Shown here: positions 12,291 to 59,879 of the stretch, piece after piece
Layout of the letters: each line of letters begins with the position of its first letter
How positions within the stretch are numbered: the first letter of the stretch is position 1
Assembly (NCBI GenBank): GCA_040954595.2
Contig: CM082576.2
Coordinates: forward strand, 6,823,129 to 6,887,128
Reading direction: 5' to 3'
DNA length: 64,000 nt
From: Balanoglossus misakiensis
Lineage: Eukaryota; Animalia; Hemichordata
Notes under the pieces: generated by a model
Database searches by the model: none
What the model was told of the DNA's origin: nothing
The model's input: only the letters and a program-made list of their open reading frames with translations
Translations under genes and position numbers: made by a program

Positions 12291-32271
<19,981 letters not shown>

Positions 32272-35200: not shown

Positions 35201-36435
35201 TCTATTCGCCATTTCTGCGCTGGCTATTGTGAATAGCGCCCCCACTGCCTGTAGTACGAACGCTTTCTTTTGCTAATAACCTTGTTATCGATCGTGCAAG
35301 CTACGTACACTCCCTCTGGAGGTCCAATTTCAACATACAAAACAACGGATTTGGACCAAACCTTGGTGAGGGTGGGTGGGTGGTGGTGGTGGTGGTGAAA
35401 GGGCTAAACAAATCAAGGAAGGTAGCCAAGAGATGTGGAACCGCAGCATCAGTCTTTTGTTATTAATAGAGGTGTTGGATGTGCGGTCGCAATTAACGGG
35501 ACACACACGGGTACAAAGCGGAATCATGAATGTTGGTATTTTCTTGACATTTTAGTGAAAGTTTAAAGCTGTCAAACCCACTATTGTACTAAAAAAACAA
35601 AAGCAGGGAGAGTACCAGAGGAATCCATTCTGGGGTCGAAGAAACGGGCCAGTTCCCAACATACAATTCTGTGAATCCTGTTGTATTAGTGACAAGAGGT
35701 AAAAAGTTGAAAAGGCTTCATTCATACCTGTCAATACCTCAACATAAAGAGCGCAGTTTATTCTATAGCTGAATGACAGGCGTGTTGGTCTAATAACCAG
35801 GGACCACTTACAACGAAACAGACGGGGTAAAGCTTGTCTGTTTACAATATTACGGAGAGTTATATATAAGAGACCGCCCCTCCCCTATTTCATCTACTCC
35901 CAGACAACAATCACACGGAATTTACAACAGGGGCGGGAGTGATAGCGTTTCTTGGGTGCATTCGCAACTGAATAACAACGGAAGACATGTCTTGTCTTGT
36001 CGCTTCCGCGTAGTCGTGATGTGAGTCGGAGCGGGCAACCACAAAAAGGTATTCTGTACAGTCTGTGTTCAGATGTTCACTCATACAAGATTAGTAGTGG
36101 CATCCTTTTTGGACAAACACTCTCCACCATAAACACGAACCCACTTCTGCAGAAATGCCACTTATCTGAACAGATGATTGACCAAAACTTTTTCAAACAC
36201 TTATCAACTCTATTTCTAATACAAAAAAACCCAGATGTATTATAATATTCTGTTCACGTTGGTGGTGTTAATAAATCACTTCAGGGACAAAGTCTCTCTG
36301 TCGCTGCCCTTTTCCCATTAATTATGTTTGATACAAGACACCGTTTCTGTTCTTCTGCGTGTGGATATATAGTGAATCAACGTACGACCACTCACCGTGA
36401 ACTTCCATACCGCTTGTATAACATGAGAGTTAAAA

Positions 36436-36484
36436 CTCGCCCAAAATGAATAATAGTTGTTTAACGTTTATTCATTTTGGCGAG
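36436..36484. repeat. Hairpin / inverted repeat downstream of ninjurin-like copy 1
   Basis: ctcgcccaaaatgaataa (36436-36453) pairs with ttattcattttggcgag (36468-36484) with one bulged C. Confidence 0.6.
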
Positions 36485-36711
36485 ATTTTTTTCTCATATC
36501 CTACAAACGGGACAATTTTAATCATTGGGTTACAAAATGTAAAACAGAGGTGATATAGGTTCGTTGTCAACGTCATCATGACTTTCAACATGTGACGTTG
36601 GTAAAATAAACCTCATCGAGCACTGGGGTTCACAGTCAGCCTCTGGACATCATGTTCATGGTCGGATAGAAACTAGTTCACGTCATTTTTGGCCCTCGCT
36701 TAAATACGACA

Positions 36712-37997
36712 TTAGACCTGTTGAATATCACTCTGAACGATGAAAACCACGTAAGCAATGGTCGACACCAGCGACACCAGACTGAGGCAGCAGGCGGCAA
36801 ACGTGGTCGCGTTGTTCCAGTAACGGAGTGTTTTCTTGTAAAGTCCGCGGTTGACGCAGTGGCACATGGCGACAGACGCTTCTTGGCCGTCGTTCCTGTC
36901 CACGTCGACCGATCCCACAAGGAACAGGAGGAGCCCGAGGACCAATTCCAGCACGACACACACGCACGTGATGGCTATGGTGAACTGCCAGAGACCTGTG
37001 GGCACGCTGTCTTGCTTGTTGGTCACCAGCATTGATAACAGTAACCCGACGTGAATGATGAAGAGCGAGAAACCTAAAACACCAGCAGTGGCTGTCTTCA
37101 CCGTGGAGTACGTGTTCAATAGGATGCCAAACTTTTTGGGGGGTGACAAGAAAAACAGAAATTATCACGAGTTATAAAAAAATAAGCCATTCCAAGTTTT
37201 CACGATTCCAAAGAGTGTAGATGAAGTCTCAGTGTTACACACGTGCTGAAATGCGATGTGCTTATGTCGGAATTGTACATATTGCTTATAGTGTACAACT
37301 GTATTGTGGTGTAGTGAATTTTGGTGTGGTGTAAGGACTTTTTGTTTTTTGTTTATTCCATGCTAATAACGGATGACAATATGGGTCTACGCATGGACAG
37401 TTCATTTTTAAAACGGTGTTAAAAGTTAGAAGATAGGATCTGGTCCAAAATTGAATATTTCACTAGAAGAGAAAAGATTTGGACCATGGACGTGGTTGGA
37501 CGAAAAATGAAGAACAAAACCGCACCTGTTCTATGTATGTACAAAAACCTACATTACGATTTCAATACATGTCATCCAAAATGCCAACACCACGAATTTT
37601 TTTAGACTCGTGAAAGCACTAAGGTGCAGTTGTTCACGGTGGCAATCTATAAATGATTGTCTGGCAACGTTTGGTATCAGAATTTTGCAGGTGAAGTTTT
37701 CCTAGATCCTCTTACCCTTCGTTTGGGTTCACCGTCGCACTCCCATTCGATCTTCGGATCCAACTGTTCGATCGGAAACTCGTCTCCGTGTTCGGGCGCA
37801 ACGACGACGCCAGTCTCCCTGCCTTTGAGCAGCACCGTCTCGGAGTCCAGGTAGAAGAGGTCGCCCAGGGCTCTGCGCGTCAGCTTCTGCTTGGGGAGCC
37901 AAATCTTGCTCCTCATGACGTACGGCCCCTGGGCCAGGACTCCGGTCACCGTCAGACCTGCAACTGTTTGCGGGTCGACTTGGCTAAACTCAGCCAT
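36712..37997 (-). CDS. Ninjurin-like membrane protein with extra N-terminal globular domain, copy 1 (~233 aa)
   Basis: Exon 1 is 37997-37716 (MAEFSQVDP...EWECDGEPKRR|gtaaga). Exon 2 is 37131-36712 (aag|FGILLNTYSTVKTATAGVLGFSLF...LELVLGLLLFL...LRYWNNATT...QQV*). Motifs align without gaps to ninjurin NHYASKKSAAESMLDIALL and LDFLNNLAT. Confidence 0.8.
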
Positions 37998-39680
37998 GAT
38001 TTCCACCGAGAAGAAATGGATACTACGTCGGAAAAACGATACCCTGTCACACGGCATACATAACAAAAGGACGCGGCCAGATTTTCACCAGTCGCAGGTC
38101 ACTCCGGTGGGTCCCTAGAAGGAAGTACCTTGGGGCATTTGCCTTCCGCTGCCATAGCAACTCAACAACATGCGCAAGCAATGGATTCGTTCCGGTCGAA
38201 GAAAGGGGAACCTGCGTGTAAGATTTATTATGCTGTTTGGAGCTGTCTTTCTGCCTTTCAGGCGTCCCAAACACTCCCTGTACCTGTATAAAACACAATA
38301 AGGCGCAAACAGATCCTGACAGCCATTTTGAATCTCACATAGGACATTATTCAAATGATGGTGGCGCAACGAAGACGTCAGGTAGACCGCCCGTTTGTTT
38401 AGAGATGCTTGCAAGGGCAGTCGCCAATGACAACAGAAAAACACACATGAATTGAGGTCGACAGTTACACAATGATTGTGTTTTGTAATCTTATGGACTC
38501 CCCCACCCACCACCCCACTGCACATAGAGGCGTACAGTGCACTATGATCGATTGTTATGAATCAAGAGAAGATATCGCCAATTCACGAACTTACATCAAC
38601 AGCAGTCGCATTGTCAGTTTGATGCGGGAGTCGATATTGTGCCACCGGACCAGAGAAGAACATTATGTGAAGGAACTTTTCAAATTGAAGGTCAGAAGAA
38701 AAGAGTGAAAGATTCATTTCCAACACGATACACATCACAGAGTTTGAAAACGCATTTAATTTATTTTTTCTTAGAAGAGTAACTCCTTCTTGCTAACCTC
38801 GTAAAAGTATATCATGTACATTACCCATCGCATGCAGAGAAATTCCTGCGATGCCATTAGTTCAGTTTTTCGATATTACATGAACGACTTCGGTCTAATA
38901 ATGTTTTTTTTAATTCAAAGAAAGAAACGAAGTAAGTGTCGAAGAACAAATTGATACATGGTTTAAGAAGCACATATACGAACTCAGAGGAGTCGCCTAT
39001 TCCCGTTAAGGAAGTAAAATTACCTATAAAGGGTGAAAAAATTGGTTTTTGTCTGTGATTCAAAGGGGGTTGAAACCCTACCTATAAGTTCTGCTTACCC
39101 CCTCCCCACCCCCACCATATAGGCCTAAGTGTCTCCTAGTCAGTTCGTCGAACCATACCCTCTTTCCGAGGTATGTCTCTACACTGGGGAAAGAAATCAA
39201 GGCAGAGCTAGAGTCTGACTTCTTAGCGGTTTTGTCTCTTCTCCTGGGCTAATACAAAATACACAGGCCATACCACAAGTTTTACTGTGTGTGGCTACGC
39301 TACCACCGCAACTTTATTACAACAATAGTGATACAACAATTGAACTCTTACATGGCAGCTCAGAAAATACGCCTAGACCCCGCCCTAAAAAACAGAGCTT
39401 ATAAAACCCTTTTATAGGGAAAATTCCTCTGAAAAAGCGTTGGGTCCCTGAACCAAAACAGAAAAGAAAAGAAACTAAAAAATTTAACGGATCACAAGGC
39501 GACTTGACTGGCCGGTGGTAGCGCGTAGACTGACCTGATTACCCCACCTACTTGATATTCATACTCCCATAAACAGCGCCCTCACGAAACAACAAAACAT
39601 TTATTTCTCTCTATACGTTGTACCTTGAGAAATAACATTTGATAAGTGTTGAAAGACAGTGTCTTTTTGCAATATCCTGG

Positions 39681-40725
39681 TTATCCACCAGTAGTACTGG
39701 TGTCGCTCGAGTTCTGAATTAGAATGACCACATAGGAGATGGTTGCCACCAGCGACATGGCGCCCAACATGCAGGCAGCGAACATCACCGTATTGTTCCA
39801 GTAGCGGAGCGTTTTCTTGTACACGCCAAGGCCACAGCAGTCGCACATGGCGACTTCCGTCTCGGGTCCGTCGCCGTCGTCAATGTCGACGACGCCGGTG
39901 AGGTACAGCAAGAGCGCGAGGACAAGTTCCAGGAGGAGGCATGCGGACACAGCCACGTAGGTGAACGGCGTCAGCCCATCGGTCACCGTAGTCTTCTTTT
40001 CAATGACCAATAAGCTGACGAGTAGACCGATGTGGGTGATGAACAGACCGAAATCCAGCACGCCGATGCCAGCGGTCTTCACCGTAGTGTAGCTGTTGAA
40101 CATGCCGTACTATAAAACAATGAAAATGAAAACTGTAAACTTAAAATCGATAAAGAAATTAAGATGTACTAATAGAAAAAAAAAACATCTGATAAGTTCA
40201 GATGGCCATCATGTTAGGTGAATGTTTCATTCACCCCATTCTTTCAAGGCGACGAACAGAAATCAACTGTCCATTTCTCTCAAATCACATTTGTGTCATT
40301 AAAAATGTCTACATGTATTTTCATTTCATGTCCGTGACATCAGAAAAAATACGTACATACATACAGCGCACTTGCTGCATACATGTATACATAAAATTTA
40401 CCTTTCTTGCTGGTTCGCCTTCACACAACCATTCTAACTGAGGGTTTAACTTTTCAATTGGAAAAGCACCTGTGGAATCTGGTGCCACCATGTCATTTCC
40501 CTGGCTAGACTTGAGGAGTATCGTGCCAGGATCGAGGCAGAACAGTTTGCCCATCACACTTCGCGTCAGGCGTTCCTTGGACAGCCATATTTTCCCCTTC
40601 ATCGCGTACGGTCCGGACGCCATGGTGCCGTTGACGAACACGCCATTCTGCTGCTGGGCGCCTCCGGCTGCATCGCTGAAGGCTTTCCTACTTGTGCCAG
40701 GTTTGGGGTCCTGTTCATCTGCCAT
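39681..40725 (-). CDS. Ninjurin-like membrane protein with extra N-terminal globular domain, copy 2 (~250 aa)
   Basis: Exon 1 is 40725-40402 (MADEQDP...EWLCEGEPARK|gtaaat). Exon 2 is 40109-39681 (tag|YGMFNSYTTVKTAGIGVLDFGLF...LRYWNNTV...TGG*). Same phase-0 intron position as copy 1; clear paralogy in both exons. Confidence 0.82.
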
Positions 40726-41243
40726 TCCAACTTCTCTTGCTTGAGTGTGATGTCAGTCCCCGTGTGTCGGTCGGTCAGTCAGTCAGTGAAACCGCAGTGG
40801 AGGTCACGTGACGCGCAAAAAGTTATCTGTTCCCCAGGCAGTACTGGCTGTGGCGGTCGAAAGAACCCACTCTCACCGAGAACACCTCAGGCACTACTTT
40901 CTTGCCATCGCTTCATGATACCCGGAAGACATGACCTGTGGCGGCGTTGCTATAGATACGTAACTCAAATTACAATCGCACCAATAGCTATATATACATG
41001 CACACAAAAGGTACTGACCCCTTTTGCCCTTGCCATGTACTTATTCTTCTTGACACGGTGTATGAACACTGTGTGTACAGTCTCTTGGTTTTCAGTTGAG
41101 GCATTCGTGAACAAAATCAATTTGCTGTAGTCGCAGTTGATAAACAACCACTGTGGTTTGGCCTAAACGACCACTTTAAATGCAATTTTGTCCTCTTTAG
41201 GCGCAGAGAGCTATCGATGCCTACCCGAGTCATTTGCTCACAG

Positions 41244-41312: not shown

Positions 41313-41930
41313 GTTGTAACACCAACTCTAATAGGAGTTTTTCCAATAATATTTATCGAATGAAACAGCTTAGACAGGTGATTGAGGGCGCTAATTCATG
41401 AACCGACATGTGTGATGTGCTTGGACAGAGGCGTGGAGATGTCCTAATAATATACAAATGTAGAAGGTTATTCTGAACTGGACGGTAACATTAATTTGGA
41501 AGTGGGACGAGCCTCCTGTGTGGTGACATTTTCGCTACCATTATAGAGTGGGACCGTCTCAGTTTCGTAGTTCACAAAGTTCAACCACAAACTTACTCAG
41601 AAATAAATTGTGGCAATGTAATCACTGGCAGTTATCAGAAAAGTTTCCGAAACAAAAAAGTGGCCCGACAGGAAACTAAACGTGACCATATATCTAGTTA
41701 ACCAGTTATCAGGACAGTTTGGAACATAAGGAAAATAAGTGGTTGGTTTGAAAAATCGGCACGAGGCGAAGAATGGTTATCATTTACGTTAAACTCGGTG
41801 TAATGTCGCCTGGTGATACTTGTACCTTTAATCATGTCAAGAATAAAACAACTCGAGTTTTAGTTACAACACGTAAATCGGTATTTATTTCAAAAGCCGG
41901 CAATGAAGGCGAACACTTCCCCCCATTGAC

Positions 41931-44900
41931 TTATTCTAAGGCGATCTTGCTCACTTCCTTGATGGCTTCAAAGGTCTCGGTGGCCGTTGGCTCGATTTGG
42001 TCCTCAGGTAACAGGAAGCCAAATTCACCAGTGTCGCGCAGTTCGACGGCATGGGTAAGAACAATACCTTCAGTATCATAACCCCAGTCAATACTGCTAC
42101 CAGTGGCAACGTCTACAGATGTGACATTTTGAGAAAGAGAGGGGAGAGAGACAGACATACAGAGAGACAGAGAGAGGGAGAGAGAGAGATAGTATGTTTG
42201 TTAACGATTGATAGATAAAAATAATGCCTATAATTTCGATTTACATGTTAAAACTTTATACAATGAACGGATCATGAATTCCAGATGATAGCAGGCACAA
42301 ACTTCCAATCAATATCCAAGTCATCCAATTTTGGGTTATTTCCTGTCTGTTCCCCTGAAATAAAAACAACACCTGGAATGATACACTTACAGATGGTGTT
42401 TGCGATGGTTCCTGTTTCATAGACAGTTCCGTAGACTGCATTCAGAGCCGCAGCACATCTGTTGTTAGAGTCAATCTGTCATTGTCAAAGATAAATATGC
42501 ATGGTTATTTTCGTCGACAATGGTATACGGTCACCTCCAATTTGAATACGCCGCGCCCACATATGGCTGAAAAGGCGTATTTGAGTATTATAAAGAACAT
42601 GTGGTATGTTTGTATCCCGCGTTCCATAACAGATTCGAGTTCAATGTCTACGAACCTGTTTGCTGTAATCGGGATCGAGTGGAAGGGATTTGGTGTAACC
42701 GTAGGGGCTCATCCACATTTGTGAGTAGGCGTGGAAGTCGATGAAGACGGCCACATTGGGAGCCAGGCTTGTTATAAATTTGGATGTAGCGTCTGTCTCC
42801 GCCTCGGAGAAAGCGGATGTACCGTGATAAGAATCGGAGCAAGGCATGTCACTGGAACCGGGCACTGGAAAGAAGACGATACAATCACAGTTGCGAGGAC
42901 AATATGATTCGACTCCCATTTATAAGCTTATATCTTTCAGGACCCAGGAGTACCTAATAGGCACTGATATGAAAATAGTTATAATGAGTCTGTGTCCCAA
43001 GGCCTAATGACGACGAAAACAGACCACTTTGAACTTCGCTATAACACCATGTAACGTAGTCAGAACCGTTACCCGATCACCTGACATTGTGACAGTTTAA
43101 AATGTTAATCGATCGGTGGGGCAATAATGACGTTCGCCACCGTCTTATACGATTGGTCAAATCAATATTGATTTGGCCAATAACAGCGCAGGAAACGGAT
43201 CATGAGGCGTGTTTCAAAACTGGTAAGCTTCGAGTGGTTTACTCACTAACACCCCAGGATGCGTCCCAGTTTCTGTTGGGGTCAGTGCCCATGCATGGCG
43301 AGCCGGCGTTAGGAGATCTCGTCTTACGCCACATGCGGTCCTGAAAGAGAAAACATAGGTTTTTGTCAGCGATCTTCGACGATTTGTCACAACGACCTTC
43401 TATGTTTCTGTCTCTTTTGATTTGATACCGATAAACGGTAAGAAATACAATAGTATAAATGTGAAATTTGCCTGGCTACTTTTGACTTGTTACTAGAAGA
43501 TATTGCGGAATTAGTATTTCTGTTTATAGGCTATCAAGTGGCGCAAGCACGGTGCTGACGCATCCCCCTTGCCTATAAAAAGAACCGAGACAGAACATGC
43601 ATGATTTTCAACCCTTTTACTTTTTTTTGTCGCTTTCGCGGTAATGATGGATTGGCTATCCGAAAAATGTCTTACATCAGTCCATGTGAACTCGTATCCG
43701 TCTGGGTTGGACGTTGGGGCGATGTAGTAATCGAAGGTGTCCACATAGTTTGTGATTTCAGGGTCGACGCCATATCCTTCCAGAAGCTGAAATGATCAAC
43801 GAATGATATAATACAATGTAATATACCGTGCATATGCACGACCCAGCATGAAGAATGGGCGTATATTGTCCGGTGGCAAGGGCGCAGTAAAGCCATCCGC
43901 CAAATTTTGTGTTACATGTACTTGCCCGACGATGTTGTGTGATGACTATTATCGTCTACTGATAGTAAAATTTGTAATTTGTCTAGCTATTGTATCTGAC
44001 CGGGGCGCTTGTTTTATTTTTATACAGCACACAATCGGAGGATACTTACAAATTTCGTTGCGTAGAGCATTGTGGCAGGCGATACCCATTCACGGGAATG
44101 GATGCCACCGATGTAGTACTGTGCCGGTTTGCTAGTTCCGGCTTTGCCAACCTATGAAGTGAACGTGGAAACACGAATTAATGACCGAGTTAAAGACAGT
44201 CCCGAAGAGAGATGTCGTCCAAGTCATACGACAGCGTTAATGTGTGTATCTTGATGCCTCCCTTCTCATTCTGAAAACAAACCAACTTGCCTTTACTCCA
44301 CGGATTTTGCGCCCCTCGTATGAGGTGCCCACGGTAAATGGTACGGCGATAGAGGGATATTCGAGGCAGATGTCATCAATCCACTGATCGATCTGAGAAA
44401 CAAAAATGAAAGATGGGGGTAAAGCCCGTAACATTGATTTGGAGTCCGCGTTTTTTGTGTGTCTGGTGGCAAAGAGTTACCAGGATAGTTTACCACGCGA
44501 GTTGAACAGATAAGTTTGGCTAGTGACAGCACAAATGTGCTTTTTATTTCAATCTTTCCAACAAATGTGCAGAAAGAAACCTCGACTGGTCACCTGTGCA
44601 CGTGGTGGTGGAGGTGGTGATGATGATTGGTAGACGAAAACTCTATCATGACAAGATGTTCGGAGGGCTGTTAAGCTCTAAGTTCTGGCCAACTGGACAC
44701 ATAAAATGCAATACCTCGGCATAGGTGTGGTATATGTTGTAATCAAAAACCAAATCGGGATTTGCCACGCTTCGCTTCCTGGCATTCTCGGCCATCTGCT
44801 CATCAATGACACTCTGGACGTCTTCCATCATGGTCCTGACGTTGAATCCCAACAATCTCAACTGGGAATTGATTTCGCCGAACCTGCTCGGCGAGACCAT

Positions 44901-45666
44901 GATATCAACAGGCACCCCAGTAAAGCTGGCTTCCTTCCAGAACTTCAGCTACGTATAAGGAAAACAATCACACAATTAAAAAGAACACACACCCAATCAC
45001 AAACCGTATTTATTCCAAACAGCTATAGTTTGTTTGCGAAGAAACTAGGTTTTTTTTTGTCTTCTTTTTCGATCGCAGCTGGGTTTCAAATTGTCTGTAA
45101 ACTCGGACAAGTTTGGTTCGTTTATTTTCAAATTCGGGAAAGGTATCCACACACCAGGAAATTATTAAGATTTATAGGTTGCATAATCCCTCAAACTATT
45201 TAATCAGTTTCCGGACCAAGTGCGCCTGTCTGTCTGTCTACCTGACAACCTGTCTGTCTGTCTGTCTCTCTGTTTCTCTGTCTTTTCCAGCTGTCTGTCA
45301 AACTGTCTCTCCATGCATATGGTTTTCTTCTCTTACCTCCAGGTCATTCTCCAGATCACGCAGGTACTCTACTTGAGCATTGCTGGTAGGAGTTATACGC
45401 AACACATTGTATCTGAAACATGTATTGAAGACCGTTAGGCCCAAAACAACACTTAACACCCATTGCACCTGCACGATTTACGTATATTTTTACTATCAAA
45501 TACGCCGACTCCGATTTCACACAATCGATAAAAGATGTTCTATCGAAAGTATCCAGATGTCCTCTGCATGCGATGACACTTGTAAATAAAACAAATCTTA
45601 CCCTTCGTAACGAGTGACGGCCTCCACCAAGGCGAGACTCAGTGCGACAGTGAGAATCTTCCACAT
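41931..45666 (-). CDS. Secreted zinc metallocarboxypeptidase, M14A family (CPA-type), copy 1
   Basis: Exons 45666-45602 (signal peptide [16 protein letters not shown]), 45412-45337, 44948-44715 (propeptide, YHTY), 44392-44291 (GC donor), 44151-44050 (GIHSREW), 43786-43676 (NPDGYEFTW), 43340-43247 (WRKTR, DPNRNW), 42864-42656 (DFHAYSQ), 42475-42391, 42112-41931 ([22 protein letters not shown]). Zinc ligands and catalytic Glu are intact. Confidence 0.95.
42131..42190. repeat. (AG)n/(ACAG)n microsatellite in carboxypeptidase intron
   Basis: gagaaagagaggggagagagacagacatacagagagacagagagagggagagagagagat; it forms the polypyrimidine tract of the last intron on the minus strand. Confidence 0.8.
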
Positions 45667-48034
45667 CTTGGCTGTACTGTATCCGAACCAAACTATCTGA
45701 GGAAAATTTGGTCTGACCCAGCGCGACCTTTGCGATCCCCTTAAATAAGTTTGTCTAATTCACGGGGGGTGCGTATATTCTCTACGTCTGACGTGTTTTG
45801 TTTCGCGGTAAATGCTGGACTGCTGGACTACTAATCATCAGCTGTCGCGAAAAGGAATAAAATTGACATGGCTTGATTTATGACCAAAATTCTGTGAGTT
45901 CTTTCCACAAATTTCCTGCAAAGTCTGGGTTACGACCCCCTGTTATGAAAAGTGCCTCGCGGTTTCATGTATATGGGATTTTTAGCATCCCGAGATTAAT
46001 CATTTTCCAATATCTTATCGTTGTCTCTGACAACCGGATTGTCCCCGTCTCAAAAAGCCCTTGTTTGAGTTGTCAAAAGATAAGAGACACGAATATGTCA
46101 CTTAAAGCTGTATTCATTCTGTTGATCTGAAAATATCGAATAATTTCCTCCGTCATTCCTTTAATTATACTCGCCGAACGTACTTTGGGCGATGGATAAT
46201 GATGGATATGGTATAGGTAAATTCTACGTATTTACCTAAGTTTACATGTGTCGCCATTTTTTGGAGAAGAAGCATTATATCATAAGAAAAATAGCTTAGA
46301 GAACGCAAGGTCACAGAGGATTGCCACAGCAACGGCACTTTTTCTTGATAACTATTTTGGCGCCAAAAATGAGGAAGTGTGGCACAGCTGTTTTGGACAT
46401 ACAGCTATGAAAAAAATATTCACGGTTTTCATGGCAATTCAGTGCGGGCATGAAATGAAATGACAATCATGTACTGATGACGTGTGGTTTCTGTTTTTTC
46501 CACAAAATACTGTATTATCCGCGTATTTCAATAATTATCTTTCATTATGAGTTTATATTTTCTACCAACTTTGTCTCCTACACACGAACTCAAAATCTGG
46601 GGTTTTAGTCGTCTTTCTGTGTGGTCGGTTACATTTTAATGATTTCTTCACCTGGCCAAGTGTTTGCTTTGCAGAAATCAGGTCAGGGCACGCAAAGGTT
46701 TTCAGCAGTGCGTGTGTCAGGCGCAAGAGGACTGTCAGGGACACGATAAACCGTGAAATCTTGTTACTGAGTGATACAGCGTTCGTGTTAAAAAAACAGA
46801 TGATAAAGTAATCGCGGCCAAAGAACTCCGTAACGGCTGCCATGTGTTGCCTTTCTCAACAAAGATAGGATCATGCCACCCTTCCACTGTACAGGTTGCG
46901 GTGACCGGTATTCGACCGAGATCCACACAGAGTTGAGAGTGCAGAGAATTAGTCCTACATCGCGACTTTTATCAATTTCAGACTCGCGAGCCATCAAATA
47001 TTATCGTCGTCCACAAACACATCTGAAATATTTAAAAGTCCTCATGCGGGATATCTAAACAAACAGAACACCACAATAGATAGTGGACTATTATTAGACT
47101 CCTAAATGGTGACCTTACAATAAACAAAATTAATTCGTTTGCGTGGACGCTTAGGGACACAGAAAACAAGACATTTTATCATATCTCCGCACAACGAAAA
47201 GTGATTAGCGAGATAAAGAGGCTTGTTTTTGGAACAAGCAGGTGTCAGTTTCCCACCTGTCTCACTGATGGTTGTCTAAAATTGTCCGTTTATCCCTCCA
47301 TTCAAATTTTAACATTTGAGATGATGCATGCTGATTTGGGGGGAAGTTCATGTACTCTGTCAATTAGAGAGCACGCGTTTAGTGAGTGTACATTCTTTTA
47401 ATTTGGATTTTGGACGCCAGGTGTCTTGAGATAAATTCCACTTTGTATGATGCAACAAAAAATGGTTGGTATTTTGGTTGTGTGATGTGGCGTGTATTTG
47501 CTGTGAGAAAGTGCAAAGGTTTACACGAAAATCAGTAACTGTTTCAATTACTGTGGTACAGAATCAATGTTCATGGACTTCTCTTGACAGTTTGTTCCAT
47601 CTATAAGCACAATACCGTGCCGGTGGACACAAATTGAACAGTTTTAGTTACCCGCCTCTGCTGTAATACGGGATAGAATATGCATTTAGCGCCCCCAAGC
47701 GTTGATTGGCGTACATGCATTTGCATACGCGTGAGGGCGACCCGCACGAGTGTCCCAGAGACTCCCATGTGCCGTAGTACGGTATACACGATTCCAAAAC
47801 CCATTTTTTGAATAATTCCAGTTTTAATTATTACAATGATAGAAGATCAATATATAAACATTCAAAGTAAGAAACCTGGATATTCAATTTCATAAGAAAA
47901 TATATTTAACATCGCTTTGAGCGATGTTTTTCCGTTTACAATACTGGAACAAACTCTGTTGTAGTAATATCGTCGGTCAAAAGTGAATGTGCGAAGTTTC
48001 ACTTTCCGTCACGTGACTCGGCATTGATTTCTGT

Positions 48035-52181
<4,147 letters not shown>

Positions 52182-53341: not shown

Positions 53342-55787
53342 CTATATCATTTGCGTGACTAATGCGAAGTAGGTAACAAGTACGCTAATCATCTAGAAAA
53401 CAAATCAATATATAAGATATCGAGATTACGGAATAGTACATCTGAAAGGACAAATATGGTATGAGTCTCATGTTTAATATGTGTAGTATAATTCAGTGTT
53501 CAGCTTTGTTCGTTCAATGCAAAAGCAAAGCACTTCGGGCTGGTGGTCTGAAGGCACTCCGCTAGAGGGCGATCTTCAACATTCTGGAAAAACTATCCAA
53601 AAGTTTATGCTAGTCTCGCACAGAAATCGAAAAATAAGTCTTACCGTCAGAAGCAATTTTTTTGTCACGGGAATAAGGTTCCATATTGTTAGAGCAATGG
53701 GCTCGCCGTTCAACTTTGCAAGAAAAAGGCCGATCTGTAAGACATAACATAACAGGCAGAAAAATTAATATTTTGATGAAACAAAAATATAATTATAACG
53801 CTTCACCGACATCATTAACGATATAGATTTCACTGACAATAATTGCAGTCATACAAGGCTTGCAGGCAAGACCTGTTATTGTACAAATCGCAGTGTATAC
53901 AATAATGAATCAGTTAGGGCCTAGAATCTAGTAGGACAAACCTGTAACATTCTGTGGTTGTCTACGCTGTGTCGAAGAGAAATATCATGTAGGCAGTGTA
54001 CGGCAGAATGTGCCTATGAACGAGAGAAGAGATGGTAAAATGTGATTCCATGCTATGATGGCTGCAACGGGTACTTGTAAGCGGGCACATTGACGTCATC
54101 TACATATATCTATTGTTGTTTGAGGCAGTCAAGGATAAAATTAGAAGTTTTGTTAATCTAGGATACATTTGAAAATATTTCTTTGAAAATCTTTCTATGT
54201 CATCAATCAGGGTTGGTATTTTGCCTCCTGCACCGATTGGCTTGCTCGCCTTAGAGGGCGTAAAAACCACGGTCACTCCACGTTTTGGACTTACGTGGAC
54301 GGCCACCGAATAACCAGATAAATTTTTGCAACACAATGATGACATAAGTTCCAAATAAAGACATCGAGTTAATTTTGGCGGTATCCTCATTATATATACG
54401 ACTCATGAGATTCAAATACATGTATGGTCGCCAATCTCTGTGTTAACTCTTTGGAGAAAAGTTTAAGTGTTCATTTTTGTGAAAACAAGGATTGTTAAAA
54501 CTCTGTAATTCTGTTTTAAAAGGATACCTCATAGACCTCAATCTTTGCAGCAAAAGACTGACAAGTATGGAGGACTTTCATATTTTATTATTATCTGCAT
54601 ACTACGAATATGAATAGCCCCTTTACCTTTTCATTCAAGCAAGCAGCAAACCATGTTATCATAGCGACGTTTACGAAATTGATGAAGAGCCAAAAGACAA
54701 CCAGTGTGGACATGAACGGACTGAAAGGGTATTTGATGATGAGCAGGTGGTACAGCAAGAAACACGCCAACGGTAAATTGGACGCCAAAGCGATCATGTT
54801 GAGGAACGATAAGATGTCGTCTGCGTGCCTGACCGAGCGACTGAGATGTTGGTGCTCTGTGCGGAATGTTTCCAGGTTCGCCAGGTTCCCGTCCCTTATG
54901 TGGCGGGAGAGATTTTTCTCCAACTTTGTGAACTGCCTGCGCAGTTGCAGGGAGATGACGCATGAGAAGGCGATGGGAAACACCCAAGACGCAGAGGCCA
55001 CTATGTATCCGGCGATAACCGGCGCATGTATCGCCGGGTGGTTGCGCAGGTCAAAAGGCGCCAGGAAAATGCTGGTCTCATTGCGGGTCGCCTCCAAAGG
55101 TCCGTACAGAAAAAACGTAATAGCGGACACGTTTAACGAGGCGAAGCCGAGGCAGACGACAAGAAACACCAGGACCCTCTTCCTCAGCCACCGGTAGTCG
55201 ACGCTGAGCCCAAGACAAAGACTGAAGGGGCTTTGGCAGTGTTCCTGAAAATGACGAAAGAAGACGGCAAATTTGGGCGACGCGCTCAGGTAGAAACACA
55301 CGGATGCGTTGATGGCGCACTGCCACAGCCAAACGCTGGACGCGATTTTAGCAATGTAGAACTGCTCGCCCGTCCTTTCCCCAGACCAAAAACTCGACAG
55401 CGACCTGGAGAAGTTAGCCCATCCGAGGAGGATGACGAGCGAAGAGTACAGTGCACACAGACGCTGTTTTGCTTTCCCGCTCTCGTTCCTCTTTTCTGCT
55501 GGCGGGAAATGGTAAAGTCCGAAGATGGCCATACCGACAAGGAGTGGCTTCAGAGCTCTGTACAGCGTCGAAGTCTCTAGACGGTTATTGCCGGCGCGAG
55601 CACCCGTCCCGTTTTGAAAACCATTTTCAATATCCACGTTTGTATCCGACTGCTGGGTAACACCGTTCCTCGCCGTATCGAGATGTGCAACGTAGTTGTT
55701 AACGGCCATGGCGTTCGCGATCACTCGGTCAGACCGAATGTAGCTCGCGTAGTTCGGTTCGTACGGTTTGTCGAAGCCCCCATTCAT
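53342..55787 (-). CDS. Gustatory-receptor-like (Grl / 7TM chemoreceptor ion-channel family) protein A (~457 aa)
   Basis: Exons 55787-54627 (MNGGFDKP...LYRALKPLLVGMAIFGL...FRTEHQHLSRSVRHADD...LNEK), 54013-53942 (AHSAVHCLHDI), 53734-53645 (IGLFLAKLNGEPIALTIWNLIPVTKKLLLT), 53392-53342 (MISVLVTYFALVTQMI*). Multiple hydrophobic helices and three phase-0 introns near the C-terminus. Confidence 0.9.
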
Positions 55788-56518
55788 CTTCAAGATGAAT
55801 GTTGTCCCCGTCGTATACCGCTGAGATTTTAACCGCTGGAAAAACAGACCGGGGTTGAAGATCGAATGCAAGGACCAAACGAAGGTATATAACAGTCAAG
55901 CGGCGTATTGGCGCAGTCGATTAGAGAAGCTTTATTCGTCAAATGGAAAATGATTTGCTGGTCACTACGTGTACATGGCAAATACTACGACCTTTCATTA
56001 CATAACATATTGTGTGGGAGGGATGTGGTTTCAACCAATATCGTTTATGATGCGATAGAAATGAAACAAGTTAATTGGCTGCACCCTCATTCTTGTGAAT
56101 AAATGGTTCCAAGTGCTCAAACACGACAGCGTCTGTTTAGAATATGATTGTAAATAATCACATCTTGCGTCAAATTTTGGATCGTATCCCTTTAAGCATA
56201 TTTCCATCACTGGCCATTAGCATGAATTCTTGGTTCATACGCAATTTGCAAGAAATAACGGTATCGCCACAGAAAATTACAACCCGCGAAAATATAAAAT
56301 CTGCCTACATTTGCATGAACAACTATATAGGAGTGACGAATTAAATTATGAATATCGATTAAGACCATTCAACTCAATGACTATCCTAATTTGTCAATAA
56401 ACTTATACGTGTCTGTGAGCTATGAAATCATTAAACCTTAATTTATCTCATTCGAATACAAAGCAAAATTGACCTCTATGCTCTTACTTCTACAGTGTGA
56501 GAAAAGATGCCCTGCCAA

Positions 56519-57200
56519 TTATTGAAATTGCATCAACAATGTGAAGTATGTAGCGAATAGGCCAGCCACCTGGAATTTAAAAAAAATCAGAAATCATAAG
56601 AATATGCACACGATATTCATATTGGATGTTCAAGGCACCATTTGTTATTGAAAAAAACATGGCGTGTTGGGTATTAATACGTTTCCGTTACGAAATAAAT
56701 AAAGATTGTCCACATTTTGCACGTGGCGGTGAATCATGATAGATGGAGTTCATTCTCTACAGCTAGGTTTCCATGGCTACTTACTGTCAAGATGACCCCC
56801 TTAGTTACAATGACCAGTCCCATTGCGCTTATTCCCACTGCAGGACCTGTCAGCTTACTCAGTAACATGCTCATCTGCAGGAGCAAGAGATTCTGCTGTT
56901 AAAAGTCTTATCTGGGATAGACTTTTCCTTGACTTTCAAGGTGACGTGTTTATGGCAGGGGGGATGAACAGAACACGTTTTGTTTTGCAATGTTTTTGTC
57001 TTAAATTTCATGTCACATGCAGATTCGTCTCTCTAAAGCTTACCTGAAAATGCGAAGCAGTGATTGGTTCTTGTATTCGAACGGAGTGTACAATTCCTAG
57101 TAGTGAGTGGGCCTGTTGGGATAACACAATAAAGTGTTACAAGTGGTCTGATTACAAATGATGATGATGGTGGTGGTGGTGGTGGTAGTGGTGGTGGTGG

Positions 57201-57244
<44 letters not shown>

Positions 57245-58372
57245 GTGATGGTGATGTACCTTATCGTTGACTTCTGCGGAAAACCATGAAATCATGGCCA
57301 CGTTGGCTGCGTGAAACATCGTCCAACAGCAGGTCATGGTCACGGTGCTGGGGCTCCCGACTCTCACGAAGAGAAGTTGATACAAGAGAAACATGGCCAA
57401 GGGGATGTTGGTCAGGTATGCCATAAACGTGAACGCCGAGAACACGGAGTCGGCGATTTCGACGGCTTCGCAGAGGTGGAGGTGACGAATGCGAAAGTGC
57501 TCCAGTTCTTGGACAAACCCGCCGTGGCGCATTACGTCGTCTGAAAAGTTCTTGGCCAACAACTCGAAGTGTTTGATGAGTACCAGGCACATGATGATGA
57601 AGAAGAGGAAGGGGAACAGCCAGGCAGCGGTGCTGTAAGCGTGCACGACCAAAAGAGCGCTGGCCGCCCCGCGGGAATTCCACGGCGCCGTGAACAAACC
57701 CTCGAAGCCAGGGATTTCTGTGCTTATGGTGATGTAAGCGGTGAATGCTACGTTGAAAAGGATGAGCACCCAGCAGGCAATAGTGATGAACACAGCTCTC
57801 TTCGATAGCCATTTGTAAATTGGCGCGTGGGACAACTCACTTGCCTCGAAACCGTCGCAGAACGCGTGCCAGTGGAGAAGAAACCTCGGTAGCTTGGGTG
57901 CATGCATGCAGGCGATGAACATGACGGTAGCGTTAAAGGCACACTGAAATAGCCACGTGCCTACTATAGCCATCAAGTAGATCTGCCCGTCCACTTCGCC
58001 GACAAAGAATCCAGGTATGTACCGCAGGAAATACAACCACAGACAACCCGTGGTGAAAAGATTGTACAGCCAGGCAAAACTACAGCCGAATTTCCACGAA
58101 GGACCCCGGTCGACGCCGGCCATGAGGTGGCCCTGTACGACAAAGTCGGACTGGAGAGTGGGTTCGTGAAATAAACCCAAGATCTTCATGCTTACGATGA
58201 GGGGCCGGAGAGCGCGATACAGGCTAACGTCGCATGCTTTGCGGCGACTTACAGAAGCCCCGCCATCCCTGCTTGCGTCTGCGCTATCTCGGTGCGGACT
58301 CGATGTTTCGCCCGGTCCAACCCACCTTCGCGCCCGTGACTGCACCGCCTGTTCAGTGTCGCCCATCTCCAT
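56519..58372 (-). CDS. Gustatory-receptor-like (Grl) protein B (~440 aa)
   Basis: Exons 58372-57260 (...LYRALRPLIVSMKILGL...FRIRHLHLCEAVEIADS...VNDK), 57112-57044 (AHSLLGIVHS), 56874-56785 (MSMLLSKLTGPAVGISAMGLVIVTKGVILT), 56569-56519 (VAGLFATYFTLLMQFQ*). Canonical TYhhhhhQF TM7 motif. Confidence 0.92.
57158..57256. repeat. Compound (TGA)n/(TGG)n microsatellite in Grl-B intron 1
   Basis: Trinucleotide run begins 3 nt after the donor site (gtacatcaccat... on the minus strand). Confidence 0.95.
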
Positions 58373-59879
58373 TTTGATATCCGTCCTCTTTTAAAATGCT
58401 CTGCTGCGTGTAAAATCTTCTGTAGTGCATAAAACACTTAGTAGTTTTAATAATCTGGAACCAACATCCAATTCTATGACACCATTTCTCCCACAGTCTC
58501 ACGCACAACTGCTGGCAGAATACTGCGCTATATTGTTGCTTTGGTTACGTGTGTCAACCGTACCACAGTCCACACTTGTACCACACCCATTACTTTTCCG
58601 ATCGATGTACTCCAGCCATTTCGATACACAACTCTAATTAAAATCAAACAACATTCGCTAATTAATCACTCTCAGCCGGAGTGTTTGAAAAAAGAGGAAC
58701 CATGTCTACACCATCGATCAGAGCCATTTGTCCATATGACGTTGTTTGCCTACTCGTTTCTTCGTGAAGTGTTTGTCACGTGTATAGACACATGTAAATC
58801 CGACTTTTCGAAAACTGAGTGGTCCGAAACATCAATGTACATGTAATTGACAGAGCTGAATAAAAAACCCGCGAAAAAATGCTTTAATTTTTTATCGGAG
58901 ATAACAATGCGGTTAGTGAAATACGAGAACGCGAAACTTAATCGTCGCGTGTCAGTTGCCTCTTTTGATATCTCGAAAATTTCCTCTCGCGAAAATTTCC
59001 TGGTTTACAGTATTTAGTATAAAAATACGCTGCTGCAAATACAATCCCCAAGCATGGAGATGTTTGCCCAAAGTAACACTTGCATTCAAGACCATTGTGC
59101 TCCTTTCTGTGCCATCTCTCATTCACCATAGTATATAGGCCTACCATTCCGCCATCCTTCAGTCTCCACTCTGTCTTCACAAAATCGTATTGTATACTTT
59201 GGAGCGTCCTTTTTCTCTCCTTTTCTGTTCAAGCTAGTAACTCTTATTTTTAAGTTCTGATTTCAGAAATTTCTTAAATTTGAAAAACGTACAAGTATTC
59301 TGCCAAAGACTGAACAAGTCCCAGATAGCTTGTAGTTATCCGTTCAACATTTTCTTGCATTTATTTGTGAAAAAGAGATTTTTGATGACGATTGTGATGA
59401 GGATTATCCCCAACTCCAATGCTTCATAATGGTTAATTGTTTCGGATATTTCATCAGCTTTATCACAGAACTTCCGGTGTTGGGCTTCACTGGAAAAGCG
59501 TCAGAGCAAATGAGCAATGTTTTTTTTTTTCGAAAAAGAAGACTCGCTTCTGATTTGCTCAAGCCACCTGAATCGCGCGGACTTGCAAATTTCTGTCTCG
59601 TCTTCATCCGGGCATTTTCGTAAAGGATGAGGCCACGCTGTTGCACGCTGCCTGCCTTCAGATGCGGATGCGGAACGCTCAGGTCAACATCAGAGTTTCT
59701 GCGCTGCTCATTTTGCTGTAAAGGCCGCGGTAAGTTGACAAAATTACTCAATTCTTGACCAGGCTCATAGTTAATTGAGGGGAGTTTCGGAAAACCACGT
59801 CACATCATACCATCCAAGTTCTTGGTCCGTGTCGTAAACTACCGGTACTAATGCTGAGGTGAAAGGTCACCTGTAGACA

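What the first reader, a model, noticed from the sequence alone, without database searches (positions are those of the whole stretch)
36712..40725. Tandem ninjurin-like genes fused to an unannotated N-terminal domain of probable ubiquitin-like fold
Seen: two paralogous two-exon genes. Exon 2 encodes a ninjurin-like membrane domain: NSYTTVKTAGIGVLDFGLFITHIGLL aligns without gaps to human NINJ1 N39-L64, keeping Y41, K45, A47, L52, D53, L56 and L64, and LRYWNN matches LDFLNN. Exon 1 encodes an ~90-aa domain conserved between the copies (21/35 identities in the GPY...LLK block, plus AP..G..FPIE.L.P..EW.C.GEP), with no signal peptide. Established: NINJ1 oligomerises to rupture the plasma membrane in lytic cell death, and canonical ninjurins have only a short unstructured N-terminus. 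Inference: the beta-beta-alpha-beta-beta-beta pattern suggests a beta-grasp (ubiquitin/PB1/DIX-like) fold. Such a module could polymerise, sense a signal or be cleaved to gate membrane rupture, making this a possible sensor-effector pair in invertebrate immunity or cell death.
Basis: partly seen in the sequence, partly recalled or inferred. Interest (0 to 1): 0.88.

Follow-up and report, generated by a model that had tools for sequence, protein, structure and literature searches.

The report
Ninjurin relatives with ubiquitin-fold head
Two neighbouring animal genes, matched by four unnamed acorn-worm genes, encode distant relatives of the cell-bursting protein NINJ1 with an extra conserved front domain predicted to have a ubiquitin-like fold; they lack most of the water-loving helix face that NINJ1 needs to tear membranes, so they likely cluster and signal in the membrane rather than burst cells.

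Summary
Two intact two-exon genes (minus strand, phase-0 GT-AG introns, dN/dS 0.25-0.33) each encode an ~85-aa conserved head plus a divergent ninjurin domain. Ninjurin is the best Pfam hit (E 1e-4, under cut-off); the family profile hits NINJ2 at E 2.9e-4; NINJ2 is the top Foldseek row. The same fusion is in four Saccoglossus kowalevskii RefSeq loci, all 'uncharacterized'; in one the exon break is shown to be at the same place. The head is likely beta-grasp: the best language-model match is the TDP-43 N-terminal domain (0.92), and PB1, CIDE-N and Par3 also appear among the matches; structural Z-scores are weak. Helix 1 has 2-4 polar residues of 27 against 9 in NINJ1. D53, needed for killing in human, fish and fly, survives in 1 of 6 loci. 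Best model (0.45): an N-in three-pass membrane protein, likely non-lytic, clustered by its cytosolic head. Head-gated permeabilisation stays possible (0.25). Splicing, expression and self-association were not tested. A new variant of a known family; I found no description in print.

The parts
40402..40725 (-). Gene A coding exon 1 (108 aa): low-conservation residues 1-27, then the predicted beta-grasp head (about residues 28-104)
   Evidence: 39/81 identical to Saccoglossus XP_077865728.1
40110..40401 (-). Gene A intron, 292 nt, GTAAAT donor, pyrimidine-rich TAG acceptor, phase 0, GC 0.31
   Evidence: splicing inferred, not seen in reads
39681..40109 (-). Gene A coding exon 2 (142 aa + stop): ninjurin-like three-helix membrane domain; hydrophobic segments 12-38, 45-77, 106-133; Cys-rich loop 89-92; N-S-S sequon in the C-tail
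   Evidence: (PF04923 E 0.0024)
39600..39605 (-). Candidate polyadenylation signal AATAAA, 75 nt after the gene A stop
   Evidence: motif only
37716..37997 (-). Gene B coding exon 1 (94 aa): predicted beta-grasp head (about residues 14-91)
   Evidence: (pLDDT about 80 over residues 41-90)
37132..37715 (-). Gene B intron, 584 nt, GTAAGA donor, AAG acceptor (the only AG in the last 95 nt), phase 0
   Evidence: splicing inferred
36712..37131 (-). Gene B coding exon 2 (139 aa + stop): ninjurin-like three-helix membrane domain, Gly at the D53 position
   Evidence: (PF04923 E 1e-4, profile 2-98 of 102)
36467..36522 (-). Candidate polyadenylation signals of gene B (ATTAAA and AATAAA, 189 and 239 nt after the stop)
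   Evidence: motif only
40803..40812 (.). Perfect palindromic E-box GTCACGTGAC 78 nt upstream of the gene A ATG (CLEAR/TFEB-USF type by recall)
   Evidence: 2 perfect and 4 one-mismatch sites in 64 kb against 1.7 expected by chance; function untested

Best explanation
These two genes, like four unnamed Saccoglossus genes, join an ~85-residue head predicted to be beta-grasp (TDP-43-NTD/DIX/PB1-like) to a divergent ninjurin domain whose first helix has lost most of NINJ1's polar face, so the protein is likely a non-lytic three-pass membrane protein that would be clustered, or linked to partners, by head-to-tail binding of its likely cytosolic head. Steps: (1) gene structure and fusion - shown by sequence and by independent RefSeq models; (2) ninjurin ancestry - shown by profile hits; (3) N-in, three-helix topology with the head in the cytosol, 16-17 residues from the Y41 position - inferred from the lack of a signal peptide, hydropathy, basic residues at both cytosolic helix ends and the solved resting state of NINJ1; (4) resting-type packing round the invariant Y41/K45/T46/N119 pocket, without conversion into a lipid-repelling filament - inferred from residue mapping; (5) head-driven clustering that gives a signalling or scaffold output in stress or immunity - inferred by analogy only.
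For: Fusion: exon-1 profile search of 1.84 billion representatives gave 4 hits at E<=1e-3. Three are Saccoglossus: XP_077865728.1 and XP_077868054.1 are head plus ninjurin-like domain, XP_006817044.1 is the head on an LRR-Roc-COR; the fourth is a chance MBG-repeat protein. add LOC100379051 and LOC100378903. XP_006817044.1 and XP_077865728.1 share 99/99 residues and part exactly where the window's exon 1 ends, so the intron position is shared. W-to-Y41 spacing is 16 in 5 of 6 loci and 17 in gene B. The head is better conserved (window vs Saccoglossus 23/67-39/81) than the membrane part (25/128-44/132). Fold: Atlas features give TDP-43_N at 0.92 with 173/256 shared; the named families below it are GRHL1_C, Ubiquitin_GT-1, CIDE-N, PB1, Par3_N and KHA. 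All 4 trimmed VIA rows and all 9 are ubiquitin-like or TDP-43 NTD. TDP-43 NTD, DIX and PB1 polymerise head to tail (PMC5491494). Non-lytic: TM1 (NINJ1 44-70 equivalent) has 2-4 charged/amide/His residues of 27 and mean hydropathy 1.4-2.0, against 9 of 27 and 0.28 in NINJ1 (by hand). Over 6 loci, K44, E49, Q63 and K65 are kept in 0, D53 in 1, G95 in 1, A47 in 2 (V in 3, as in non-lytic NINJ2), A138 in 0. D53A, G95L and A138L reduce or abolish lysis (PMC10307626); the D53 equivalent is also needed in turbot and, by spacing, in fly NijA (D140). Rupture-independent ninjurin signalling exists (WNT/LRP6, PMC13503662).
Against: Nothing here shows self-association, expression or localisation. The head has no Pfam or PDB sequence hit. 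VIA Z is only 2.7-3.5 and beta-sandwich rows outrank it when the low-confidence N-terminus is included; the best Foldseek E is 0.8. The Atlas score was obtained on the Saccoglossus homologue, and 4-10% of shuffled proteins reach 0.9. Many beta-grasp domains are monomeric docking sites. Y41, K45, L52, L56 and N119 are invariant in 6 of 6 and gene A keeps A47 and D53, which fits a retained activation switch. Compensating changes could rescue substitutions that are lethal in NINJ1. The TM3 register rests on a non-significant stretch (-0.4 bits), so the T123/I134/A138 mapping is soft. Two of the 6 loci are 96% identical, so the counts are not independent. The membrane-domain model has pLDDT 51.
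Confidence: 0.45

Rival explanations
1. Head-gated membrane permeabiliser: the ninjurin domain still ruptures or transiently perforates membranes, and the head holds it off sterically or switches it on by polymerising or being cut off.
For: Invariant Y41, K45, L52, L56 and N119; gene A has the K45-D53 pair and A47. The head sits a fixed 16-17 residues before Y41, on the side where the resting dimer pocket lies. The NINJ1 filament repeat is 20.95 A, smaller than a ubiquitin-fold domain (about 25-30 A, recalled), so a tethered head could act as a brake. The NINJ1/NINJ2 N-terminus can decide lytic activity (PMC12547243). Fly NijA makes transient non-lytic pores (bioRxiv 2026.07.06.736761). Duplications in both species fit immune genes. 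Gene B and XP_077865728.1 have a W-x-C-D-G motif at the end of the head that resembles an inflammatory-caspase site (recalled preference).
[quoted passage not shown] D53 is kept in 1 of 6. The Asp of the candidate cleavage motif is in 2 of 6 loci and directly follows invariant W and C at the end of predicted strand 5.
Confidence: 0.25
2. The head is a monomeric ubiquitin-like docking or sorting domain that controls trafficking, turnover or partner binding of a non-lytic ninjurin-like membrane protein, possibly on endolysosomal membranes.
For: Trimmed structural matches include monomeric Ubl domains (Ufm1, ISG15, BAG1, parkin). The Atlas model of XP_002733241.1 aligns weakly to ubiquilin and other Ubl-containing clusters (TM 0.28-0.38, all under the naming bar). 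A CLEAR-type E-box lies before gene A. His at N60 in 5 of 6 loci and Glu/Asp at Q91 in 4 of 6 could form a pH-sensitive intramembrane pair (contact not checked).
Against: The feature search ranks polymerising families first (TDP-43_N, then CIDE-N, PB1, Par3_N) and lists no ubiquitin cluster among the rows shown. There is no C-terminal di-Gly. Gene B has no such E-box within one mismatch.
Confidence: 0.2
3. The fusion is a gene-prediction artefact: head exon and ninjurin exon are separate genes or relics.
For: The junctions were not seen in reads. One older Saccoglossus model (XP_006817044.1) joins the same head exon to an LRR-Roc-COR gene instead, and another (XP_002733242.2) ends in a different tail, so annotation has been unstable.
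Against: Both copies have in-frame phase-0 GT-AG junctions. Exon 1 has no stop before the donor. Read-through frames stop after 26 and 12 codons. Both exons are under purifying selection. Four Saccoglossus loci are modelled as the same fusion with the same linker length.
Confidence: 0.04

Closest known systems
Ninjurins NINJ1/NINJ2 (Pfam PF04923; PDB 8CQR, 8SZA, 8UIP filaments, 8SZB NINJ2, 9BIA resting dimer)
   Same: Three-helix layout; N-x-Y41-x-x-x-K45, L52, L56, Q91-like (E/Q/D), N119; best Pfam, PDB-profile and Foldseek hit.
   Different: Folded ~85-aa head in place of the ~38-44-aa disordered N-terminus; hydrophobic rather than amphipathic TM1; K44>V, E49, Q63, K65 lost, D53 mostly lost; TM2-TM3 loop 29-31 aa with 1-5 Cys against 14 aa; Pfam score 18-23 bits, under the 26-bit cut-off.
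Saccoglossus kowalevskii LOC102802228, LOC100379051, LOC100378903, LOC144357888 (RefSeq 'uncharacterized protein')
   Same: Same head-plus-ninjurin architecture and linker length; same exon break shown for LOC102802228; two of them lie on one 15.8-kb contig.
   Different: Only 34-48% identical in the head and 20-33% in the membrane part; unnamed; Pfam sees ninjurin in one (E 0.011) and nothing in the others.
TDP-43 N-terminal domain (PF18694) and the DIX/PB1/CIDE-N/Par3-NTD class of beta-grasp domains
   Same: Predicted strand-strand-helix-strand-strand-strand order; Atlas feature score 0.92; VIA match to 6b1g Z 3.5, rmsd 3.0 over 61 residues.
   Different: No HMM match; 8% identity in the structural alignment; an extra conserved N-terminal G-x-x-x-x-G-x-x-x-x-G-P segment; attached to a membrane domain; polymerisation unknown.
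Mitochondrial calcium uniporter MCU (N-terminal beta-grasp-like domain plus membrane helices)
   Same: Top Foldseek rows for the head (E 0.8-2.5, TMq about 0.36). An architectural analogue: a small regulatory beta-grasp-like domain on an oligomeric membrane protein (role recalled).
   Different: Not significant; the membrane part is ninjurin-like with three helices and lacks the DIME selectivity motif (motif recalled).

Membership tests
Ninjurin (PF04923) | Pfam score at or above the curated cut-off (26 bits) | tested here: not met
   18.2 and 22.6 bits, E 0.0024 and 1e-4, nearly whole profile covered; Saccoglossus 16.1 bits in 1 protein, none in 5 others. Filed as a divergent homologue, not a curated member.
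Ninjurin (PF04923) | Detectable sequence homology to solved ninjurins | tested here: met
   Family profiles against 177,635 PDB sequences: NINJ2 is top at E 0.003, 0.013 (110), 2.9e-4 (112); NINJ1 at E 0.32-8.8. Single sequence and 2-sequence profile found nothing.
Ninjurin (PF04923) | Three long helices (TM1 plus hairpin) | tested here: met
   AF2 helices 4-38, 46-73, 96-139 at pLDDT 51; three hydrophobic segments; Foldseek rank 1 NINJ2 (E 0.64), NINJ1 at ranks 7, 8, 22 of 72. Low confidence.
Lytic NINJ1 class | Amphipathic TM1 with a hydrophilic face | tested here: not met
   2-4 polar of 27, mean hydropathy 1.4-2.0 in 6 of 6 loci against 9 of 27 and 0.28 for NINJ1 (by hand).
Lytic NINJ1 class | K45-D53 inter-protomer salt bridge | tested here: inconclusive
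   K45 6 of 6; D53 only in gene A, 1 of 6 (G, N, N, N, A elsewhere).
Lytic NINJ1 class | Resting-dimer polar pocket (Y41, K44, K45, S46, E49, D116, N119, N120) | tested here: inconclusive
   Y41, K45, N119 6 of 6, S46>T 6 of 6, N120 2 of 6; K44, E49, D116 0 of 6.
Lytic NINJ1 class | Short disordered N-terminus | tested here: not met
   Head has 13 invariant columns over 6 sequences and folds at pLDDT about 80 over residues 41-90.
Lytic NINJ1 class | Filament formation and plasma-membrane rupture | not testable with these tools
   Needs expression and leakage assays.
TDP-43_N (PF18694) / DIX / PB1 beta-grasp domains | Pfam HMM match | tested here: not met
   No family for either exon 1 or the Saccoglossus heads.
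TDP-43_N (PF18694) / DIX / PB1 beta-grasp domains | Beta-grasp fold | tested here: inconclusive
   Atlas features 0.92, 173/256 shared, on the homologue; all 13 trimmed VIA rows are ubiquitin-like or TDP-43 NTD but Z is only 2.7-3.5. Likely, not proven.
TDP-43_N (PF18694) / DIX / PB1 beta-grasp domains | Head-to-tail self-association | not tested
Charge positions vary between loci, so no conserved acidic/basic pair was identified.
Conjugatable ubiquitin-like modifiers | C-terminal di-glycine after the last strand | tested here: not met
   The head ends W-x-C-x-G-E-P in 6 of 6 sequences.
MCU | Two-helix pore with DIME motif | tested here: not met
   Motif (recalled) absent from both exon-2 products; three hydrophobic segments.

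The most novel reading that the evidence does not exclude
The head is a homotypic polymerising adaptor that wires a ninjurin effector directly to an innate-immune sensor. In Saccoglossus the identical head exon is modelled both on the ninjurin and on an LRR-Roc-COR (MFHAS1-like) protein. If both splice forms are real, one locus makes a sensor and a membrane effector that co-assemble through a DIX/TDP-43-like polymer: an inflammasome-like circuit built without death domains, and the first ninjurin with a built-in, ligand-coupled trigger.
Probability: 0.1. Interest if true: 0.9.

Novelty: new variant of a known kind. Interest (0 to 1): 0.6.

Why it matters
What triggers ninjurin activation, and what the N-terminus does, are open questions (PMC12547243, passages). 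This subfamily is a natural experiment: a folded domain fixed 16-17 residues before the resting-dimer pocket, together with loss of the lytic face. Swapping heads and TM1 segments with NINJ1 would test directly whether clustering from the cytosolic end drives or blocks the kink, and would separate lytic from signalling roles of the ninjurin fold. It also shows that standard annotation misses a branch of the family: all relatives found are 'uncharacterized' and fall below the Pfam cut-off.

Tried and rejected
No genome is held for the window, so copy number outside the window and the organism were not determined. No RNA holder was listed, which says nothing on expression. Word-based homologue searches with exon 1 ('longer', 212 candidates) and the two exon-2 sequences (1,763 candidates) found nothing; the later six-row profile found 3 of 7,217, all Saccoglossus. 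These searches need shared exact words, and the exhaustive search used only a two-sequence profile, so the taxonomic range is not established. Metagenome scan: 76 pattern matches, none confirmed. PHROGs and NCBIfam gave only weak chance-level rows; the viral fold library gave nothing at E<=0.001. VIA-wide on the membrane domain returned generic helical bundles, with no ninjurin in the 50 rows shown: uninformative. VIA's top rows for the head (glycosidase C-terminal beta-sandwiches and cupins, Z up to 5.4) were set aside because they need residues 1-30 at pLDDT under 50. The whole-protein Atlas feature search gave no usable hit. The fourth hit (604 aa, MBG repeats, E 7.7e-4) was dropped as chance. 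Complex prediction of two head domains was not available, so there is no verdict on self-association. No kappaB consensus lies near the genes, and the two upstream regions do not align. MCU homology and a cleavable ubiquitin fusion were rejected (see membership). Literature: listings showed no paper describing this fusion; I saw titles and abstract starts only, and subscription papers and supplements were not searched. PMC11055670 was not held.
Full report
Observation. The minus strand carries two genes of identical design between the 3' end of a PP2A B56 gene and a cluster of M14 carboxypeptidases. Gene A is 40725-40402 plus 40109-39681 (250 aa if spliced); gene B is 37997-37716 plus 37131-36712 (233 aa). 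Both introns are GT-AG and phase 0, and are GC-poor (0.31, 0.37) against exons of 0.53-0.60. Reading on into the introns meets a stop after 26 and 12 codons. In-frame stops lie 9 and 29 codons upstream of the ATGs with no earlier in-frame Met, so an upstream coding exon is not needed, though not excluded. The copies are 42/85 and 74/131 identical. Nei-Gojobori dN/dS is 0.39/1.56 for exon 1 and 0.40/1.22 for exon 2, with the third codon position least conserved. Both exons are therefore old, selected coding sequence. No further copy lies in the window.

Exon 2 is a divergent ninjurin. Ninjurin is the best Pfam family for both exon-2 products, over nearly the whole profile, but under the cut-off (18.2 and 22.6 bits against 26). 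Profiles that include the Saccoglossus relatives pick NINJ2 first among 177,635 PDB sequences (E 0.003, 0.013, 2.9e-4), with NINJ1 next in two of the three. A low-confidence AF2 model (pLDDT 51) is a three-helix bundle with a continuous first helix, as in resting NINJ1 (PMC11711097, passages and section 9). Its top Foldseek row is NINJ2 (E 0.64), with NINJ1 at ranks 7, 8 and 22 of 72. None of these alone is decisive; together they agree.

The fusion is conserved. An exhaustive search with the two exon-1 products returned 4 proteins at E<=1e-3 among 1.84 billion. Two are Saccoglossus kowalevskii proteins with the same head followed by a ninjurin-like domain (XP_077865728.1, XP_077868054.1), one is an older Saccoglossus model discussed below, and one is a chance repeat protein. 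A further search added LOC100379051 and its neighbour LOC100378903. All are named 'uncharacterized'. The distance from the head's last Trp to the Y41 position is 16 residues in 5 of 6 loci and 17 in gene B. These are predicted models, and I did not see their transcript support, but they were made independently of this window. The head is more conserved than the membrane part. Separate domain trees are small; in the ninjurin tree genes A and B are sisters (83/97, unstarred), and the head tree does not resolve them. The organism of the window is unknown: an animal, not identical to any protein found, whose only detected relatives are hemichordate.

The head. It has no Pfam, NCBIfam or PDB sequence match. 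AF2 folds residues 41-90 of the gene B head at pLDDT about 80 (3 of 5 models above 60 overall), with strands at 28-33, 56-59 and 85-88 round a helix at 41-48; residues 1-30 are unreliable. With that part trimmed, every VIA row is ubiquitin-like or the TDP-43 N-terminal domain (4 of 4, 9 of 9), but Z is only 2.7-3.5. Untrimmed beta-sandwich rows score higher. Foldseek's best row is the MCU N-terminal domain at E 0.8. The ESM Atlas, queried with the Saccoglossus head, gives TDP-43_N clusters first (0.92, 173 of 256 features), then GRHL1_C, Ubiquitin_GT-1, CIDE-N, PB1, Par3_N and KHA; that these are all beta-grasp is my recall. I put the fold at about 0.85. TDP-43 NTD, DIX and PB1 domains form head-to-tail polymers (PMC5491494, passages). 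Whether this head does is untested. There is no di-Gly, so it is not a cleavable ubiquitin-like modifier.

Topology (inferred). There is no N-terminal hydrophobic signal, and there are three hydrophobic segments. Basic clusters precede TM1 and TM3, Cys clusters lie in the TM2-TM3 loop, and sequons occur in the TM1-TM2 loop or C-tail of 3 of 6 loci. This fits N-in, C-out, the topology shown for resting NINJ1, and puts the head and the Cys-rich loop in the cytosol next to the Y41/K45/N119 pocket.

Does it lyse? NINJ1 ruptures membranes through a hydrophilic face. In the register printed, NINJ1 44-70 holds 9 charged or amide residues of 27 (mean hydropathy 0.28, by hand); the six loci hold 2-4, His included (mean 1.4-2.0). 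K44, E49, Q63 and K65 are hydrophobic or small in all six. D53 is kept only in gene A, G95 only in gene B, A47 in the two window genes (Val, as in NINJ2, in three Saccoglossus loci), and A138 is I, L or V throughout (the TM3 register is soft). D53A, G95L and A138L reduce or abolish lysis by NINJ1 (PMC10307626, passages). Turbot D50 and G92 are needed too (PMC12799870, passages), and fly NijA needs D140, eight residues after K132, although that mutant also fails to reach the surface (PMC3460944, passages). Against this, Y41, K45, L52, L56 and N119 are invariant and S46 is always Thr, so the cytosolic-side core of the resting dimer seems to be what selection kept. I therefore favour a non-lytic, resting-type membrane oligomer organised by its head (0.45) over head-gated permeabilisation (0.25) and a monomeric docking head (0.2). 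Ninjurins do have rupture-independent roles, such as LRP6-dependent WNT activation (PMC13503662, passages), and NijA makes transient pores (bioRxiv 2026.07.06.736761, abstract and outline), so neither output is excluded.

The LRR-Roc-COR lead. XP_006817044.1 begins with the same 99 residues as XP_077865728.1 from its residue 17 and parts at the exon boundary, continuing into LRR, Roc and COR domains. Five residues later comes an M-G-S-I-L-S start that looks like a myristoylation signal (recalled rule), so the older model is most likely a mis-join of neighbouring genes. It still implies that a Saccoglossus copy lies next to an MFHAS1-like LRR-Roco gene. Real alternative splicing is the novel case (0.1). 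No LRR-Roco sequence was noticed in this window among ORFs of 110 aa or more (13 ORFs were scanned with Pfam).

Novelty. Six literature searches aimed at the fusion (listings only) showed no description of it. [quoted passage not shown] Earlier unchecked notes of this scan report other invertebrate ninjurins with enlarged Cys-rich cytosolic loops but none with this head. Verdict: real, conserved, unnamed; a new variant of the ninjurin kind, probably not a NINJ1-type executioner. Interest 0.6.

Noticed in passing
Saccoglossus XP_006817044.1 (P0006) vs XP_077865728.1 (P0005): The same head exon is modelled on an LRR-Roc-COR (MFHAS1-like) protein in an older annotation and on the ninjurin exon in a newer one: mis-join or alternative splicing.
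   Followed up: partly
window 54591-55895 and 57152-58390, minus strand: Two long single-exon ORFs for multi-pass membrane proteins; the first matches Pfam 7tm_7 (E 1.6e-8) and Trehalose_recp, i.e. gustatory-receptor-like; the second looks alike but had no Pfam hit.
   Followed up: partly
window about 41900-51100, minus strand: At least two M14 zinc carboxypeptidase genes in tandem (two propeptide exons at 44646-44948 and 50710-51072).
   Followed up: partly
window 7649-8170 and about 19600-32270, plus strand: An atlastin-like exon (name by recall; Pfam gave only DUF2207_C) upstream of a PP2A B56 gene (Pfam E 2.8e-21) that points toward gene B.
   Followed up: no
window 40803-40812 and 48008-48017: Two perfect GTCACGTGAC palindromes (CLEAR-type E-box by recall), one 78 nt before the gene A ATG, one within the carboxypeptidase cluster.
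   Followed up: partly
window 36410-36510: A 101-nt imperfect palindrome (75% self-complementary, E 2e-9) about 200 nt downstream of gene B, overlapping its candidate poly(A) signal; possibly a small transposon remnant.
   Followed up: no
exon 2 of both genes, N60 and Q91 positions: His/Glu in the window genes and LOC102802228, Arg/Asp in LOC144357888, His/Gln in the other two: possible co-varying intramembrane polar pair.
   Followed up: no
window 39834-39845 (gene A) and 36856-36864 (gene B), TM2-TM3 loop: Loop is about twice as long as in NINJ1 (29-31 vs 14 aa) and carries 1-5 cysteines in all six loci; candidate palmitoylation or metal site.
   Followed up: partly
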